Assembly: GCF_009914755.1 (NCBI RefSeq)
Contig: NC_060935.1
DNA length: 64,000 nt
Reading direction: 5' to 3' (one strand)
Source: the human T2T-CHM13v2.0 reference genome, Homo sapiens
Positions 13,684 through 19,568 of this stretch are shown in pieces. Position 1 is the stretch's first letter; every line of letters starts with the position of its first letter. Made by a program: the position numbers and the translations under genes. The notes beneath the pieces are model-generated. The model searched no databases, had not been told where the DNA came from, and worked only from the letters and a program-made list of their open reading frames with translations.

Positions 13684-14499
13684 TATGGGAAGCAGAATTG
13701 TCTTATTCTCAGTATGATTCATTTTGTCTATAGTAATGAAAGTAAGAAAAACTCTAGAAGACTATACAAATCAAATGAAAGAGAGATGGAGGCTGTGGGA
13801 ATGGTAGTTCTGCCCACCTGGGCACATGCCTTTAGTGTTAAAGTTTTAGAGTTCTAATAACTGTTTGAATTAGAGAGTTGACTCATTGGCTATTGGTAAG
13901 GATATATCAGTATTGATCAGTACTTAACCCAAGATAATTTTATTCACAATTAACTTGCTTCTTAAGTTAGCTGATCTGTGAAGGATGCTGCACCACACAG
14001 AAATTTTATTTGCACAAGTATTAAAAAATTTAGGCCTTTCTGTGAAGTGTATTTAGTGCAAAGCTTTAGGTTTATTGACTACCTATGACATCTTTTACAT
14101 AAAGAGCCAAGAGTAAAGCTTTATGAAGTTTATAACCCTAATGATATTTTAATTGTTTTGAATGATAGTTCATGCTATTGTTTCTAGTACATGTTCTTTT
14201 TAACACTGCTTATTTAGTAATTGTTATTATATTTTACAGTTATTGAGCACTCAAATGTGATCACTTTACAGAATAGAACACTTCAGATGATCCTTCCTTA
14301 TTTAATTAAAAATAAACCCTTTAAGAGTAGGTCACCAGCACTCTATTTTTACATCCAGAGTCTTTTAATTATGTAAGAATTTTAGTAACTTTAATCTTTC
14401 TGTGATTACTTTTAGTAAAAACATAGAGATCCAAAATTAAGAAAATAAATATGGTTTGAAAATGCAGATAGCATTAAGAAATCGATTTTTTTAAAAAAA

Positions 14500-14612
14500 G
14501 GTTGTATAGTGTAGAATAATAGGTTACATATTTGTAGTCAAATGGTCAGTGTTGGAATATTGACTTTTTCTGAGATTGGCCAAACTTACTCTCTAAGTGC
14601 CATACTTTTCAC
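14500..14612 (+). mobile_element. MIR fragment
   Basis: Degenerate MIR core (gtatagtgtagaat...ttggccaaacttactctctaagtgcc). Confidence 0.45.
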
Positions 14613-15154
14613 ATAATGCTTCTGATTTGTTGAGAAACACATGAAGTTCTGTGAAAGAAATTTTGAAAGTGCTAAATAATTATAAAATGTTATTAAGATT
14701 ACCATATTACCCAGATCTAAAATGTCTTTGTCATAAGGTGTGAATATAGTTAAGGGTTCTAGAGTTTTTAAAAACATAGATAAAACAACAAGTTGAGTAG
14801 GGAGACAGAGTAAAAGGAAATTGAACCAAACAATGCCAATAAAACAGAAAATACATAAAAAGTCTTCTTGTTAAAAAAAACCACACTCAATGTGTTCTAG
14901 AATGCTGAATATATCACAAATTTCAAATTTCATTGTAGTGACCAAATTGATAGTTTTCAAAATTAAATATATCACATTTAACATCCTGTAGAATGCTATT
15001 CAGGTGTATCTTTCAATTTGGGCCACTTTTCTCCAGACCTTCTGGCCATTTATTCAGCACTTCACCGTGCCTTGCTTCAACTGTTATTGTTAAAGTCACC
15101 TTTTTGATCATTATCAATATTTCTCCCCAAGTTACTATTTTTAAATAAAAATAT

Positions 15155-15172
15155 AAGACTAGCCCTTTTCTT
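15155..15172. repeat. Left target-site duplication of the L1 transduction insertion
   Basis: aagactagcccttttctt, identical to 17766-17783. Confidence 0.9.
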
Positions 15173-15203
15173 TTTTTCTTCTTTTTTCTTAGTAAACCCT
15201 TTC

Positions 15204-15209
15204 TTTATT
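15204..15209 (-). terminator. Polyadenylation signal AATAAA used by the read-through L1 transcript
   Basis: Minus strand reads AATAAA-gaaagggtttact-AAGAAAAAAGAAGAAAAAAA then the TSD. Confidence 0.75.
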
Positions 15210-15485
15210 GATGATATCAAAGCACAATGAACAAAAATTCTGAATCATTAATATTTTTAAGTAACACTGGATGATCATGTATCTAGGTTAGTTTTTATAA
15301 TTAAATGAAGCTTAAGAGTTTTGCTGAAACACTGAAGATGATACCGACCTTTACAAATATTTGGCCCCTTTCTTGAAGTTGGTAGTTAAAAATGATAAGA
15401 AAATGTATAGAAATTATTTATTAGCCATTTTGGAACCATGAAAAAAAGTTAAACTACACTCAAAAAATTATCCTTTGGATTTCAG

Positions 15486-15530
15486 GCCCTCCAGGAAAAC
15501 AAGGTAAGCGAGGCCGAAGAGGAGAATCTG
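15486..15530 (+). pseudogene. COL25A1: Orphan 45-nt collagen exon, a COL25A1-like exon copy (phase 1-1)
   Basis: ttcag|GCCCTCCAGGAAAACAAGGTAAGCGAGGCCGAAGAGGAGAATCTG|gtaact encodes (G)PPGKQGKRGRRGES(G); matches recalled collagen XXV COL1 start GPPGKRGKRGRRGESG with one R>Q change; no other collagen exon seen. Confidence 0.75.
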
Positions 15531-16049
15531 GTAACTCTCTCTTTCAGCTACTCTATGTCACTCGTTCTGGTTAAGTTCTGGTGTCTGTTCTTCCTAGTTA
15601 ATGATAATATTGTCTTGTTGGAGGTTGTGTGTGTGTTTAAATCTTCTCTGCTAGACCTACTTTTTTTTTTAAATCTTCTCCTTATTTCTATCCAGCTGTA
15701 AAAAGGAGAAGTTTGCAAAGTATTGTTAATTGCAGTTTAGTAACAATTGGTACCCATTTTTGGCTTATTTACTGGGTCAAGTTAAGTCTGTCCTTTCTAT
15801 ATACAATGGAGGGTTTCTCAGCTGCACACAGTGTGATAGCATCGCCCTCATTTCCATCTATGTAGGTGGTCAGTAAATGTAGGTCCTTTGCAAAAACACC
15901 TGCCTTGGGACACTAGGGCACGTGTCTTAGCTGTATTATTATTTTATCCAATTGGCACAATTTTGTCATGCTTTTACTCTCATTCTTTTCAAAATTTGGG
16001 AATGTTTTTTCCTTTTTGTACAACCATGGAATTTTAGTGATGACAGGAG

Positions 16050-16190
16050 CACTAGTAATCAATCCACAATTTTCATTTTGTAGGTGAGGAAATTGAGTCC
16101 CACAACAGTCAGGTGATTTGGCCAAGGCAGAACTTGAAACAGAACCAATTGTCCTGATTCCTACTTCAGTACATTTTTGCTTTCAGGCCA
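16050..16190 (-). mobile_element. MIR fragment inside the transduced segment
   Basis: cattttgtaggtgaggaaattgagtccca...gtgatttggccaagg...cagaacttgaaac. Confidence 0.65.
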
Positions 16191-16599
16191 TATCCTTATA
16201 CGTAAAACAAATCACCAGTGTGAAACAGAAAAGTCAAGTAAAATTTCTTTTGAAACTGAGGTGATCTGTATAAACGAGTTCACTTAACTGTTTTACTTTT
16301 TTTGGAAATGACACAATAAGTCTTATCAGACCATTAATTCTTCCGTGCAAGATAAAAGTAATTTGAGGTTTGACTCTAGCATGCTGTAAATTGTTATTTT
16401 TCAGTATCTTCTATAAGTATTTATCAATATTAAAAATAATCAATTACTAAGTGCTGAAACAGTAGAAGCATTAACCTATCAAGAGCTGACGGCAGATTGA
16501 TGTGGGGTTTTTTTCCATCTCATTTCCTCTTCCATTTTAAGAAAGATGTTAATGTAAAAAGGGTTTATGAAAAATTATTAATTTGAGTAGTGTAGTTGC

Positions 16600-17765
16600 T
16601 TTTTTTAATTTTACTTTAAGTTCTGGGAACATGTGCAGAATGTGCAGGTTTGTTTCATAGGTATACACGTGCCAAGGTGGTTTGCTGCACCTATCAACCT
16701 ATCATCTAGGTGTTAAGCCCCGTGTAAATTAGATGTTTGTCCTAATGTTCTCCCTCCCCTTGCTACCCAGCCCCTGACAGGCCCCTGTGTGTGATGATCC
16801 CCTCCCTGTGTCCATGTGTTCTCACTGTTCAACTCAAAAGTGGATTAAAGACTTAAACATAAGACCTAAAACCATAAAAACCCCAGAAGAAAACCTAGGC
16901 AACACCATTCAGGACATAGGCATGGGCAAAGACTTTATGACTAAAACACCAAAAGCAATTGCAACAAAAGCCAAAATTGGCAAATGGGATCTAACTAAAC
17001 TAAAGAGCACAGCAAAAGAAACTATCATCAGAGTGAACAGGCAACCTACAGAATGGGAGAAAATTTTGCAATCTACCCATCTGACAAAGGTCTAATATCC
17101 AGAATCTACAAGGAACTTAAATTTACAAGAAAAAAAAACCCCATCATAAAGTGGGCAAAGGATATGAACAGATATTTCTCAAAAGAAGACGTTTGTGCAG
17201 CCAACAGACATATGAAAAAAGCTCATCATCACTGGTCATTAGAGAAATGCAAATCAAAACCACAATGAGATACCATCTCATGCCAGTTACAATAGCAATC
17301 ATTAAGTCAGGAAACAACAGATGCTGGCAAGGCTGTGGAGAAATAGGAACACTTTTACACTGTTGGTGGGAGTGTAAATTAGTTCAATCATTGTTGAATA
17401 CAGTGTGGCGATTCCTCAAGGATCTAGAACCAGAAATACCATTTGACCCAGTAATCCTATTACTGGGTATATACCCAAAGGATTATAAATCATTCTACTA
17501 TAAAGACACATGCACACGTATGTTTCTTGCAGCACATTTTACGATAGCAAAGACTTGGATCCAACCCACATATCCATCAACGATAGACTGGATAAAGAAA
17601 ATGTGGCACATAAAATACCATGGAATACTATGCAGCCATAAAAAAGGATGAGTTCATGTCCTTTGTAGGGGCATGGATGAAGCTGGATGACATAATTCTC
17701 AGCAAACTAACACAGGAACAGAAAACCAAATACTGCATGTTCTCACTCATAAGCGGGAGTTGAAC
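16600..17765 (-). mobile_element. 5'-truncated, 5'-inverted L1PA7/8-like element (twin priming)
   Basis: Poly(T) plus antisense 3'UTR 16600-16835, then sense ORF2 C-terminus 16831-17767 ([10 protein letters not shown]...HCWWECKL); aactc microhomology at the inversion point. Confidence 0.92.
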
Positions 17766-17783
17766 AAGACTAGCCCTTTTCTT
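17766..17783. repeat. Right target-site duplication
   Basis: aagactagcccttttctt followed by a; TCTT/A resembles the L1 endonuclease site. Confidence 0.9.
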
Positions 17784-17984
17784 ATTTAAAAAGCTCTCTA
17801 CAATTACAAGTTGCCTATGTTTAAAAAATTTTAAAATATTTATAGCACACAAAATCCATGCATAAACTCTCTGTCATCAGTGTCTTCTATGCATCTAAGT
17901 TTCTGCTTAACTTTTACATAGCAACATCAGTGTCATTGTTTTTAATTTGCAACTTTCAGCCATTTTATATGCTATTATGATTAC

Positions 17985-18290
17985 CTAAAATGTCTTCACT
18001 TCTCTTTTTCTCCTGGCAAACTCTTTCTCAGTCTTTAAGACCCAGCTCAAATGGCCCATCCACAGAGAGGCCCCCTCCAACTTCACAACACTTGTTCTGT
18101 TTATGTTATTAAATGTGATAGCACTTCCTCAGTTGTGGTGTATCTTTTTTGAGGGTTTTATTTCTCACATTTTATTTTATTTCTCAAATTGTGAGCCTCT
18201 TTGTTTAGAGGTAGTGCTTGGCTTGTAATTTATGTTTAATATTTAAATCCTTGTTAATGGGTGGACAAATGGATGGATGTGTGGATAGAA
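17985..18290 (+). mobile_element. L2 3' fragment
   Basis: cctggcaaactc...ctttaagacccagctcaaatg...gtgcttggc...tgttaatgggtggacaaatggatggatg. Confidence 0.55.
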
Positions 18291-19568
18291 GAAGAGGAAG
18301 ATGAAAGCTTAGGACCCCAAAATTAGTCTAATTCTCAGTTCAGGTTTCTGATTCCTTCATCTCCTGTATACCTCCTACCAATATATTCTTTGTCCTTCTG
18401 TTCTTCACTGATTAAGGCAACTATCCCTTGTGTAGCTACGATGCAGTAGGGATAGCTCAATTCATTTATTTTCCATTTTCCTTCAGACAGTACCTAAGTC
18501 TAGGAGCTCTTATAGCAAATGTGTGAGAGTAAACCACATCGTGTTAGTCATGGACTATTTAAACAGAGATATTATTAGTTGATATTGGAATTAGCTTTTT
18601 TTCTCATTTATAACTGATTTAAAAAATCAAGTTCTTATTCACAATGTATGTATACTCACTCTCTATTGTCAGCTTAGAAAAAAAATTATCTAGAGTGATT
18701 GAAACTTACCTGAATCATTGCTAAGCTTCCTATATTACAGCATGGGCATGCCTACAAACTATACCCCTTTAATCATACTTGCTACCTACAAATCTCTCCT
18801 AAAAAGCACATAATACTTTTAAATTAATAAGAAATGAATTATATTTGTAAAATTTTTAATGCTCATTCTGGTTTACTTCAGTTCCTGGACTTAGGGTCAA
18901 TTCTTAATTCTGTATATATTTCAGCCTCCTGCAAACAGGACAAATCTAGCAATAGAAAAAAGTTTTCTGCCTGCAAGCCAAACAGTCAAAATGTTAACAA
19001 GGATCCCTGATTCCATAAATAAGAGTTTCCTTACCAGCGGTAAAATTTCTAGAAACTCCTGCTGTGTAAGCTAGAAGGCTTCAAGCTGAGCTCTTTTTTT
19101 AGCAGCAAGTTGCCCTTAGATAAATTACACTGATGACTAAGTAAAACCAAGGTAATGTGAGACCAGAGTATAGCTAACATTCTTCACGTCATGCACCATT
19201 ATCAGACTCAACAAAGCAAACCTTTAGAGATCAAAGAATAAACCTTGTCCTCACTGCTTTTTGCTGTGCTGAAAATTTTAACTGCTGGTTAGTCTATTTT
19301 TAACTTATTTAAATGGAGCCAACTGCTTACTGGCTCAGAGGGTGCTTAGCTAAGAAACTACTGCCTGGCTTATATTGTCCTATCATCTAAGAACTTGATG
19401 CCCTAGATTTCCCAAGGCAGACCCTGTTTTAGGACTTGCAGGTTTAAGATCTGATTTGTACTCCCTGGCTCCAGTGAAAAATAACCTGAAACCAACCTAG
19501 TTGGAGAGATAATTCATATTAGGTGATACTAGATTGAAAGATTTAAATAACAATTGGAATTTAGACCT

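What the first reader, a model, noticed from the sequence alone, without database searches (positions are those of the whole stretch)
15155..17783. L1 3' transduction that moved a complete collagen (COL25A1-like) exon to a new locus
Seen: an identical 18-bp direct repeat (aagactagcccttttctt; 15155-15172 and 17766-17783) brackets 2.6 kb. On the minus strand the order is TSD, inverted/truncated L1, the L1's short poly(A) (16600-16606), about 1.4 kb of non-L1 DNA, AATAAA (15204-15209), 13 nt, a second poly(A) (15171-15190), TSD. No TSD fits the L1 alone. The extra DNA holds a 45-nt Gly-X-Y exon with both splice sites and intron flanks, plus a MIR fragment far older than the L1. Established: two tails within one TSD pair is the hallmark of L1 3' transduction. 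Inference: a source L1 lying antisense about 1.07 kb downstream of this exon in a COL25A1 intron read through it; being antisense, the exon escaped splicing and was copied intact. This would be a fossil of L1-driven exon shuffling.
Basis: partly seen in the sequence, partly recalled or inferred. Interest (0 to 1): 0.88.

Follow-up and report, generated by a model that had tools for sequence, protein, structure and literature searches.

The report
L1 jump carrying a collagen exon
An ancient L1 retrotransposon insertion on human chromosome 11 dragged along 1.4 kb of a chromosome 4 collagen-gene intron including one whole small exon, a clean but ordinary example of a well-known process, and the copied exon is not used by any annotated gene.

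Summary
A perfect 18-bp direct repeat (15155-15172 / 17766-17783) brackets one retrotransposition event on the minus strand. In order it holds an inverted L1 arm (16836-17765), an L1 3' arm (16607-16835), a 7-A run, 1.4 kb of non-L1 DNA, AATAAA and an A-rich tail. The non-L1 DNA has one other full-length copy in this genome, on chr4 at 112,351,136-112,352,581 (90.8% identity, K2P 0.0985). Homology stops at the poly(A) site on one side and at the A-run beside the L1 on the other. The chr11 flanks are single-copy. The chr4 site lies in the 4q25 interval between an ETNPPL-like and a SEC24-like gene. It sits on the strand that carries further tiny Gly-X-Y exons, so COL25A1 is the likely donor; the gene name rests partly on recall. 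The 45-nt exon was copied whole with both splice sites. The L1 arm and the carried DNA show the same decay (about 5% per lineage), roughly 25-45 Myr. No source L1 lies at the donor today (none within 42 kb), so a lost progenitor must be assumed. A template-switch chimera remains a minor rival. The kind is well known, and the exon is not part of any annotated transcript. Interest is low to moderate.

The parts
15155..15172 (.). Target-site duplication, the copy downstream of the poly(A) tail in L1 sense
   Evidence: It is an exact 18-mer also found at 17766-17783. 0 of 200 simulations reached 18.
15173..15187 (-). A-rich tail of the read-through transcript (minus strand AAAAAAGAAGAAAAAAA; the first 4 or so A are also in the donor)
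   Evidence: Donor homology ends at 15184-15187. Beyond that the donor reads TTGGTAGTTGAG, not A.
15204..15209 (-). AATAAA poly(A) signal used by the read-through RNA, conserved in the chr4 donor
   Evidence: The cleavage site lies 16-20 nt downstream, and the donor has a GT/T-rich stretch just beyond it.
15188..16599 (-). Transduced non-L1 DNA (about 1.41 kb), a copy of chr4:112,351,136-112,352,581 (COL25A1 interval), transcribed antisense to the collagen gene
   Evidence: 1288 matches and 130 mismatches, 10 gap events, K2P 0.0985. It is the only other full-length copy found in the genome.
15486..15530 (+). Copied 45-nt collagen exon (GPPGKQGKRGRRGESG), with ag acceptor and gtaact donor
   Evidence: The chr4 original reads GPPGKRGKRGRRGESG with ag / gtaagt. 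There are 3 substitutions in 45 nt.
16040..16170 (.).
   Evidence: It is 91% identical to the donor, and there is one weak chrX match (82% over 55 nt). The family name is recalled, not tested.
16600..16606 (-). A7 run between the L1 3' end and the transduced DNA. It may be the residual tail of the source L1, the A-rich start of its target site, or both
   Evidence: At the same place the donor reads AAAAAAAATAA (L1 sense), preceded by CTCTTT.
16607..16835 (-). L1 3' arm (end of ORF2 plus 3' UTR) in sense orientation relative to the tail
   Evidence: It matches the 3' ends of 11 of 11 fetched L1 copies at 75-87% identity.
16836..17765 (+). Inverted L1 arm (ORF2 C-terminal region), the twin-priming product. 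Its 3'-most L1 base abuts the TSD
   Evidence: ORF2p aa 1060-1227; 89-91% identity to other copies; 9-nt overlap with the 3' arm in 11 of 11 copies.
17766..17783 (.). Target-site duplication, the copy upstream in L1 sense
   Evidence: In L1 sense the site reads ...TTAAAT|AAGAAAAGGG, close to the recalled L1 endonuclease preference TT|AAAA.

Best explanation
This is one target-primed reverse-transcription event of an L1 read-through RNA, that is, a 3' transduction.

A now-absent L1 sat in an intron of the chr4 collagen gene (most likely COL25A1). It was antisense to the gene and about 1.07 kb downstream of a 45-nt Gly-X-Y exon. Transcription passed the L1's own weak signal and ran 1.4 kb through the exon on the antisense strand. 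It was cleaved 16-20 nt after an AATAAA that is still present in the donor.

L1 ORF2p nicked chr11 at ...AT|AAGAAAAGGG and primed on the new tail. It copied the 1.4 kb and 229 nt of L1. A second priming from the other target strand (twin priming) copied 930 nt further up the RNA in the opposite orientation. Joining left a 9-nt L1 overlap and an 18-bp TSD.

Shown here: the anatomy, the unique donor, the exact homology ends, the equal age of the L1 and its cargo, and the single-copy flanks. Inferred: that a progenitor L1 once existed at the donor, that the exon escaped splicing because the RNA was antisense, and the date of roughly 25-45 Myr.

The copied exon lies in an intron of a minus-strand lncRNA, antisense to it, and appears to be inert.
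For: - **Single event:** one exact 18-bp TSD pair encloses both the L1 and the extra DNA, and 0 of 200 simulations reached 18. No TSD of 7 nt or more fits the L1 alone.
- **Unique donor:** the extra DNA has one other full-length copy, on chr4 at 112,351,136-112,352,581, minus strand, with 90.8% ungapped identity.
- **Homology ends where a poly(A) site predicts:** it stops just after AATAAA plus 16-20 nt. The donor continues with a GT/T-rich stretch and has no tail.
- **Homology ends at the L1 on the other side:** it stops at the A-run abutting the L1 3' end. There the donor reads CTCTTT|AAAAAAAATAAGC in L1 sense, a good L1 endonuclease site, as expected for the empty allele of a source L1.
- **L1 identity and twin priming:** ORF2p aa 1060-1227; the two arms are contiguous with a 9-nt overlap in 11 of 11 colinear copies.
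- **Same age:** the L1 arm differs from the majority state of 11 relatives at 46 of 910 columns (5.05%). Half of the donor-to-copy K2P is 4.9%.
- **Not a duplication:** the chr11 flanks are single-copy and not homologous to chr4.
- **Donor gene context:** the donor lies between an Aminotran_3 gene at 112.05 Mb and a Sec24 gene at 112.82 Mb. PMC4678570 (passages) places COL25A1 at 4q25 together with AGXT2L1 and a SEC24 gene. Three further ag/gt-bounded Gly-X-Y exons lie on the same strand.
- **Known mechanism:** 3' transduction is described as common in PMC9311842 (passages) and in the abstract of PMC13009371 (listing).
Against: - **No progenitor L1 at the donor in this assembly.** The nearest L1 3' end on the correct strand is 42 kb from the boundary (200 kb examined).
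- **The internal 'tail' is very short.** It is only 7 A, and the empty donor site already has A8TAA. The source L1's own DNA-encoded tail must therefore have been very short or have contracted. By contrast, the terminal tail of the same insertion still spans about 15-17 A-rich nt.
- **No sibling or parent copy** carrying the same cargo was found (3 matches, namely the window itself, chr4, and a 55-nt chrX piece). That search reports lower bounds only.
- **No outgroup genome could be examined,** so the empty chr11 site is unseen.
- **The gene name and the exon status** of the chr4 sequence rest on position, splice sites, neighbouring exons and recalled coordinates, not on an annotation table.
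Confidence: 0.85

Rival explanations
1. A template-switch (or RNA-ligation) chimera rather than read-through. ORF2p began on the poly(A) tail of an independent, unspliced antisense RNA from the COL25A1 intron. It copied that RNA to its 5' end at the A-run, then jumped by A/T microhomology onto the start of the tail of an L1 mRNA from some other locus. Twin priming then finished the insertion. No L1 ever sat at the chr4 donor.
For: There is no L1 at or within 42 kb of the donor boundary. The junction is a shared A-run of only 7 nt, present both in the donor (A8TAA) and at the L1 end, so it looks like a microhomology join. Template switching and RNA ligation by the L1 machinery are documented for other chimeras (PMC13174262, passages).
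Against: The chimeras described in PMC13174262 place the foreign RNA 5' of the L1, with reverse transcription starting on the L1 tail (passages). Here the foreign RNA is at the 3' side and carries the priming tail. The model needs an otherwise unsupported germline antisense promoter at exactly this A-run. The donor boundary is a near-consensus L1 endonuclease site (CTCTTT|AAAAAAAA), which read-through from a lost L1 predicts directly. By recall, lost or non-reference progenitors are common for transductions.
Confidence: 0.1
2. Two separate events or a DNA-level rearrangement. A duplicated piece of the collagen intron landed on chr11, and an L1 inserted beside it later or earlier. The 18-bp repeat would then be coincidental or belong to only one of the events.
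For: Essentially none. The only point is that the internal A-run is too short to look like a fresh L1 tail.
Against: The exact 18-mer sits precisely at the outer ends of the L1 and of the A-rich tail, and 0 of 200 simulations reached that length. The cargo ends at a poly(A) site with a non-templated A-rich tail, which marks an RNA-mediated copy. No TSD fits either part alone beyond T-runs. The L1 and the cargo have equal divergence. The flanks are single-copy.
Confidence: 0.03

Closest known systems
L1 3' transduction (Moran et al. 1999; Goodier et al. 2000; Pickeral et al. 2000; I saw these only as entries in the reference list of PMC9311842)
   Same: It shares the L1 3' end, an internal A-run, unique downstream DNA from another locus, a downstream AATAAA, a second tail, and one TSD pair around everything.
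   Different: The progenitor L1 is no longer at the donor. The event is old (about 5% decay per lineage), whereas the catalogues I saw concern young or polymorphic L1s (PMC9311842, passages).
Retrotransposon-mediated movement of exons in the human genome: CFTR exon 9 copies (Rozmahel et al. 1997) and the ATM-region example of Ejima & Yang 2003. I saw both only as reference-list titles in PMC12533184; their content is recalled.
   Same: A genuine exon with flanking intron was copied by the L1 machinery to another chromosome.
   Different: The gene differs (a collagen at 4q25). Only a single copy was found. The cargo is antisense to the L1 transcript. There is no evidence that the copy is expressed.
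Twin-priming L1 inversion (Ostertag & Kazazian 2001, recalled; the mechanism is described in PMC13174262, passages)
   Same: The inverted 5' arm has its 3'-most base against the TSD. The arms are contiguous in L1 with a small (9-nt) overlap, and there are short microhomologies at the joins.
   Different: Here the first-strand cDNA includes 1.4 kb of transduced DNA before it reaches L1 sequence.
L1 chimeric insertions by template switching or RNA ligation (Law & Burns 2026, PMC13174262; abstract and passages)
   Same: L1 and non-L1 RNA-derived DNA lie within one TSD pair.
   Different: In those chimeras the foreign RNA is 5' of the L1. Here it is 3' of a complete L1 3' end and ends at a genomic poly(A) site, as read-through predicts.

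Membership tests
L1 3' transduction | One TSD pair encloses the L1 plus the extra 3' DNA, and none fits the L1 alone | tested here: met
   There is an exact 18-bp repeat at 15155-15172 / 17766-17783, and 0 of 200 simulations reached 18. No shared word of 7 nt or more exists for the L1 alone.
L1 3' transduction | A complete L1 3' end is followed by non-L1 DNA that ends in a second poly(A) tail 10-30 nt after a poly(A) signal | tested here: met
   The L1 3' arm is 16607-16835. AATAAA is at 15204-15209, and the A-rich tail starts 16-20 nt after it.
L1 3' transduction | The extra DNA is a copy of a unique locus elsewhere; homology ends at the poly(A) site and at the L1 junction; the donor has no tail | tested here: met
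   The donor is chr4:112,351,136-112,352,581, 90.8% identical, and the boundaries were aligned.
L1 3' transduction | Corroborating, not defining: the progenitor L1 is still present immediately upstream of the donor segment | tested here: not met
   There is no L1 3' end on the right strand within 42 kb of the boundary in the 200 kb examined. The donor boundary looks like an empty L1 endonuclease site.
L1 3' transduction | The L1 and the cargo arrived together: same age, and both present or both absent in outgroups | tested here: inconclusive
   The ages agree: 5.05% for the L1 arm against 4.9% per lineage for the cargo. No outgroup genomes are available here.
Twin-priming L1 inversion | The two L1 arms are in opposite orientation and contiguous in L1 coordinates with a small overlap or deletion; the inverted arm is next to the 5' TSD with its 3'-most base at the TSD | tested here: met
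   11 of 11 colinear L1 copies show a 9-nt overlap between the arms. The orientation follows and from the sequence.
COL25A1 exon (identity of the donor) | The donor lies inside the COL25A1 gene, on its coding strand, and is an annotated exon | tested here: inconclusive
   The donor is at 112.35 Mb, between an ETNPPL-like gene (112.05 Mb) and a SEC24-like gene (112.82 Mb), and distal to a LEF1-like gene. COL25A1 is placed at 4q25 with AGXT2L1 and a SEC24 gene in PMC4678570. Three more Gly-X-Y exons lie on the same strand. I saw no annotation table or protein sequence; the hg38 coordinates and the strand are recalled.
Exon shuffling in the functional sense | The moved exon is spliced into a transcript at the new locus | not testable with these tools
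   The hub annotation lists only a minus-strand lncRNA, and this element lies in its intron, antisense to the exon. No RNA data are available. The exon's divergence (3 of 45) is about neutral.

The most novel reading that the evidence does not exclude
The insertion is not a read-through product. It would instead be a 3'-side L1 chimera: reverse transcription started on an independent polyadenylated antisense RNA from the COL25A1 intron and then switched onto an L1 mRNA at its tail by A-run microhomology. This architecture is the reverse of the catalogued U6/L1-type chimeras. A second possibility is that the copied exon, still open and still carrying ag/gt, is used by an unannotated + strand transcript.
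Probability: 0.1. Interest if true: 0.5.

Novelty: new member of a known kind. Interest (0 to 1): 0.3.

Why it matters
It is a tidy genomic fossil of a process shown in cell culture and long proposed as a route to exon shuffling. A whole exon with both splice sites and intron flanks was moved between chromosomes by an L1. It is also an old transduction whose progenitor has vanished, and twin priming and transduction occur together in one event. It changes nothing about how L1 is thought to work, and the moved exon shows no sign of use. Its value is therefore as an example and as a dated marker for primate phylogeny, not as a discovery.

Tried and rejected
- **Naming the donor exon by protein search:** this failed because the 16-aa query is below the tool's 40-aa minimum. 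I did not pursue it further.
- **Full-text searches for the basic peptide motif of the exon:** both found 0 papers.
- **First scan of chr4 for Gly-X-Y runs:** a simple six-frame scan of 200 kb found only the donor exon. A splice-aware scan then found three more short exons among 28 candidate rows, most of which are obvious chance hits.
- **MIR identity:** the genome search gave only self, the donor and one weak chrX match, so the family is untested.
- **Pfam scan of the four L1 reading-frame pieces:** it gave no L1 family, only a sub-threshold Mcm10 zinc-motif hit that I take as chance. The PDB search identified ORF2p instead.
- **Segmental duplication and two-event models:** rejected.
- **Sibling or parent copies of the cargo:** none found, but that search gives lower bounds.
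- **Literature:** a search for COL25A1 + transduction + LINE-1 gave 2 papers. One mentions COL25A1 only as a target of somatic insertions in tumours. I did not open the other; judging by its title it is unrelated.
Full report
**Observation**

- AAGACTAGCCCTTTTCTT occurs at 15155-15172 and again at 17766-17783. It is the top direct-repeat family in 14000-19000.
- It is the longest exact direct repeat in that 5 kb. None of 200 first-order Markov simulations reached 18; the maximum was 16.
- No shared word of 7 nt or more could serve as a TSD for the L1 alone. For the non-L1 part alone, only T-runs are shared.

**The L1**

- 17121-17648 on the + strand translates to a 176-aa frame that matches human L1 ORF2p residues 1060-1227 of 1275 (8sxt, E 1.1e-71).
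- A genome search with 16607-17765 returned L1 copies in which query 225-1159 matches one strand at 88-91% and query 1-229 matches the opposite strand immediately adjacent. The tool scored 40 of 18,680 candidates.
- I fetched 11 of those copies. In 11 of 11, the ORF2 arm ends 9 nt after the point where the 3' arm begins.
- In L1 sense (the window's minus strand) the order is therefore: TSD, inverted arm 17765-16836 with its 3'-most L1 base against the TSD, sense arm 16835-16607, then the A7 run.
- This is the anatomy of twin priming. The mechanism is as described in PMC13174262 (passages); the original paper is recalled.

**The extra DNA**

- A search of the window's own genome with 15191-16599 gave three matches: itself, chr4:112,351,144-112,352,574 on the minus strand (89% identity, query 1-1409), and a 55-nt piece on chrX.
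- BLAST of window 14000-19500 against the chr4 locus gave one real alignment, window 15184-16606. All other hits were 36 nt or shorter.
- A global alignment has 1288 matches, 130 mismatches (83 transitions, 47 transversions) and 10 gap events. K2P is 0.0985, or 0.087 outside CpG.

At the tail end, donor and copy agree through AATAAA and the following GAAAGGGTTT(A/G)CTAAGAAAA. The copy then continues with an A-rich tail and the TSD. The donor continues TTGGTAGTTGAGTTTT, a GT/T-rich stretch of the kind found downstream of cleavage sites.

At the L1 end, agreement runs to GTAGTTGCTT and a T-run. The copy then continues into the L1 3' end. The donor continues TTTTAAAGAGTATTGTC, with no L1.

Read in L1 sense, the donor boundary is CTCTTT|AAAAAAAATAAGCAAC. 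That is close to the L1 endonuclease preference TT|AAAA; the motif is as quoted in PMC13174262.

**Direction and uniqueness**

- The chr11 copy has the tail, the TSDs and the L1; the chr4 copy has none of them. The direction is therefore chr4 to chr11.
- The 1.2 kb on either side of the TSDs matches only itself in the genome.

**The donor gene**

I could not see an annotation for chr4, so the evidence is indirect.
- Pfam searches of the genome place a LEF1-type CTNNB1_binding gene at chr4:111.39-111.47 Mb, an Aminotran_3 gene at 112.05 Mb and a Sec24-type gene at 112.82 Mb. The donor at 112.35 Mb lies between the last two.
- PMC4678570 (passages) places COL25A1 at 4q25 in a block with AGXT2L1 and a SEC24 family gene.
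- My recalled GRCh38 coordinates for LEF1, ETNPPL and COL25A1 give a constant offset of about 3.3 Mb. That puts the donor near the middle of COL25A1, on its coding strand. This part is recall, not a tool result.
- A splice-aware scan of 200 kb around the donor gave 28 candidate rows. Three of them are convincing further exons on the same (minus) strand: GQPGPQ at 112,312,453-470, GPPGPKGDK at 112,276,540-566 and GEQGDQGPR at 112,276,374-400. Each has a pyrimidine-rich ...cag acceptor and a gtaag donor. The remaining rows look like chance.
- The donor exon reads GPPGKRGKRGRRGESG with ag / gtaagt. [quoted passage not shown] 2005, which I saw only in a reference list. Whether it is this exon is my inference.
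- Two full-text searches for the motif found nothing.

**The copied exon**

- 15486-15530 reads GPPGKQGKRGRRGESG, keeps its ag acceptor, and has gtaact instead of gtaagt.
- It has three substitutions in 45 nt, against 9.2% overall, so there is no sign of constraint.
- According to the hub annotation the element lies in an intron of the minus-strand lncRNA LOC105369450, so the exon is antisense to the only annotated transcript.
- The exon was moved, but nothing shows that it was shuffled into a gene.

**Age**

- The L1 ORF2 arm differs from the majority state of 11 relatives at 46 of 910 columns (5.05%). Its mean K2P to them is 0.092.
- Half of the donor-to-copy distance is 4.9%. The L1 and its cargo therefore decayed equally, as one event predicts.
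- With commonly used primate neutral rates (recalled, about 1.2-2.2e-9 per site per year) this gives roughly 25-45 Myr.
- The 11 relatives were the best-scoring hits, not a random sample, so the L1 figure is approximate.

**What does not fit neatly**

- No L1 3' end lies on the right strand within 42 kb of the donor boundary, in the 200 kb examined.
- The A-run between the L1 and the cargo is only 7 nt, although the empty donor already has A8TAA. The terminal tail of the same insertion still spans about 15-17 A-rich nt.
- The simplest reading is a progenitor L1 that was never fixed or was later lost, with a short tail or later contraction of the run.
- The alternative is a template switch from an independent antisense intronic RNA onto an L1 mRNA by A-run microhomology. 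I give it about 10%. It needs an unsupported promoter at exactly an endonuclease-type site, and the catalogued chimeras have the opposite layout (PMC13174262, passages).

**Comparison with what is known**

- 3' transduction by L1 and its potential for exon shuffling are textbook material (PMC9311842, passages; abstract of PMC13009371 in the listing).
- Genomic cases of exon-carrying L1-mediated copies are cited in the literature: Rozmahel 1997 and Ejima & Yang 2003. I saw only their titles.
- A search for COL25A1 + transduction + LINE-1 found 2 papers. The one I opened mentions the gene only as a target of somatic insertions. I did not open the other.
- I therefore found no description of this particular insertion. 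Older catalogues and supplementary tables were not examined.

**Verdict**

This is a new, well-preserved member of a known kind, of modest interest.

Noticed in passing
L014 / chr4:112,351,136 (donor boundary); window 16600-16606: Read in L1 sense, the donor boundary is CTCTTT|AAAAAAAATAAGCAAC, a near-consensus L1 endonuclease site with no L1 in it. It looks like the empty allele of a vanished progenitor insertion.
   Followed up: partly
window 16607-16835 against loci L024-L034: The 3' UTR arm of this L1 is 75-87% identical to copies whose ORF2 arm is 89-91% identical. Only 3 of the 11 (L024, L032, L033) reach 84-87%. The best ORF2 relatives therefore mostly carry a different 3' UTR variant, and the subfamily was not determined.
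   Followed up: partly
window 15637-15663 against the chr4 donor: Donor and copy differ by a 15-nt indel in a T-rich stretch and by the length of a (TG)n run. These are the largest length differences between the two copies.
   Followed up: no
G000 chrX 47.56-47.86 Mb and 51.90-52.03 Mb: The Aminotran_3 search lit up more than a dozen intronless-looking, stop-containing copies clustered on chrX. They are presumably the known ornithine-aminotransferase-like pseudogene cluster (recalled) and are unrelated to the finding.
   Followed up: no
window 15204-15209 and 16607-16625, minus strand: The insertion places an AATAAA and an ATTAAA-containing L1 end in the sense orientation inside the intron of lncRNA LOC105369450. 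I did not examine whether they cause premature polyadenylation.
   Followed up: no
chr4:112,304,875-112,305,355 (L035): Another small L1 with opposite-strand arms, twin-priming-like, lies 46 kb from the donor. Its 3' end is on the wrong strand for it to be the source. Its 3' UTR is 85.5% identical to the window's L1.
   Followed up: no
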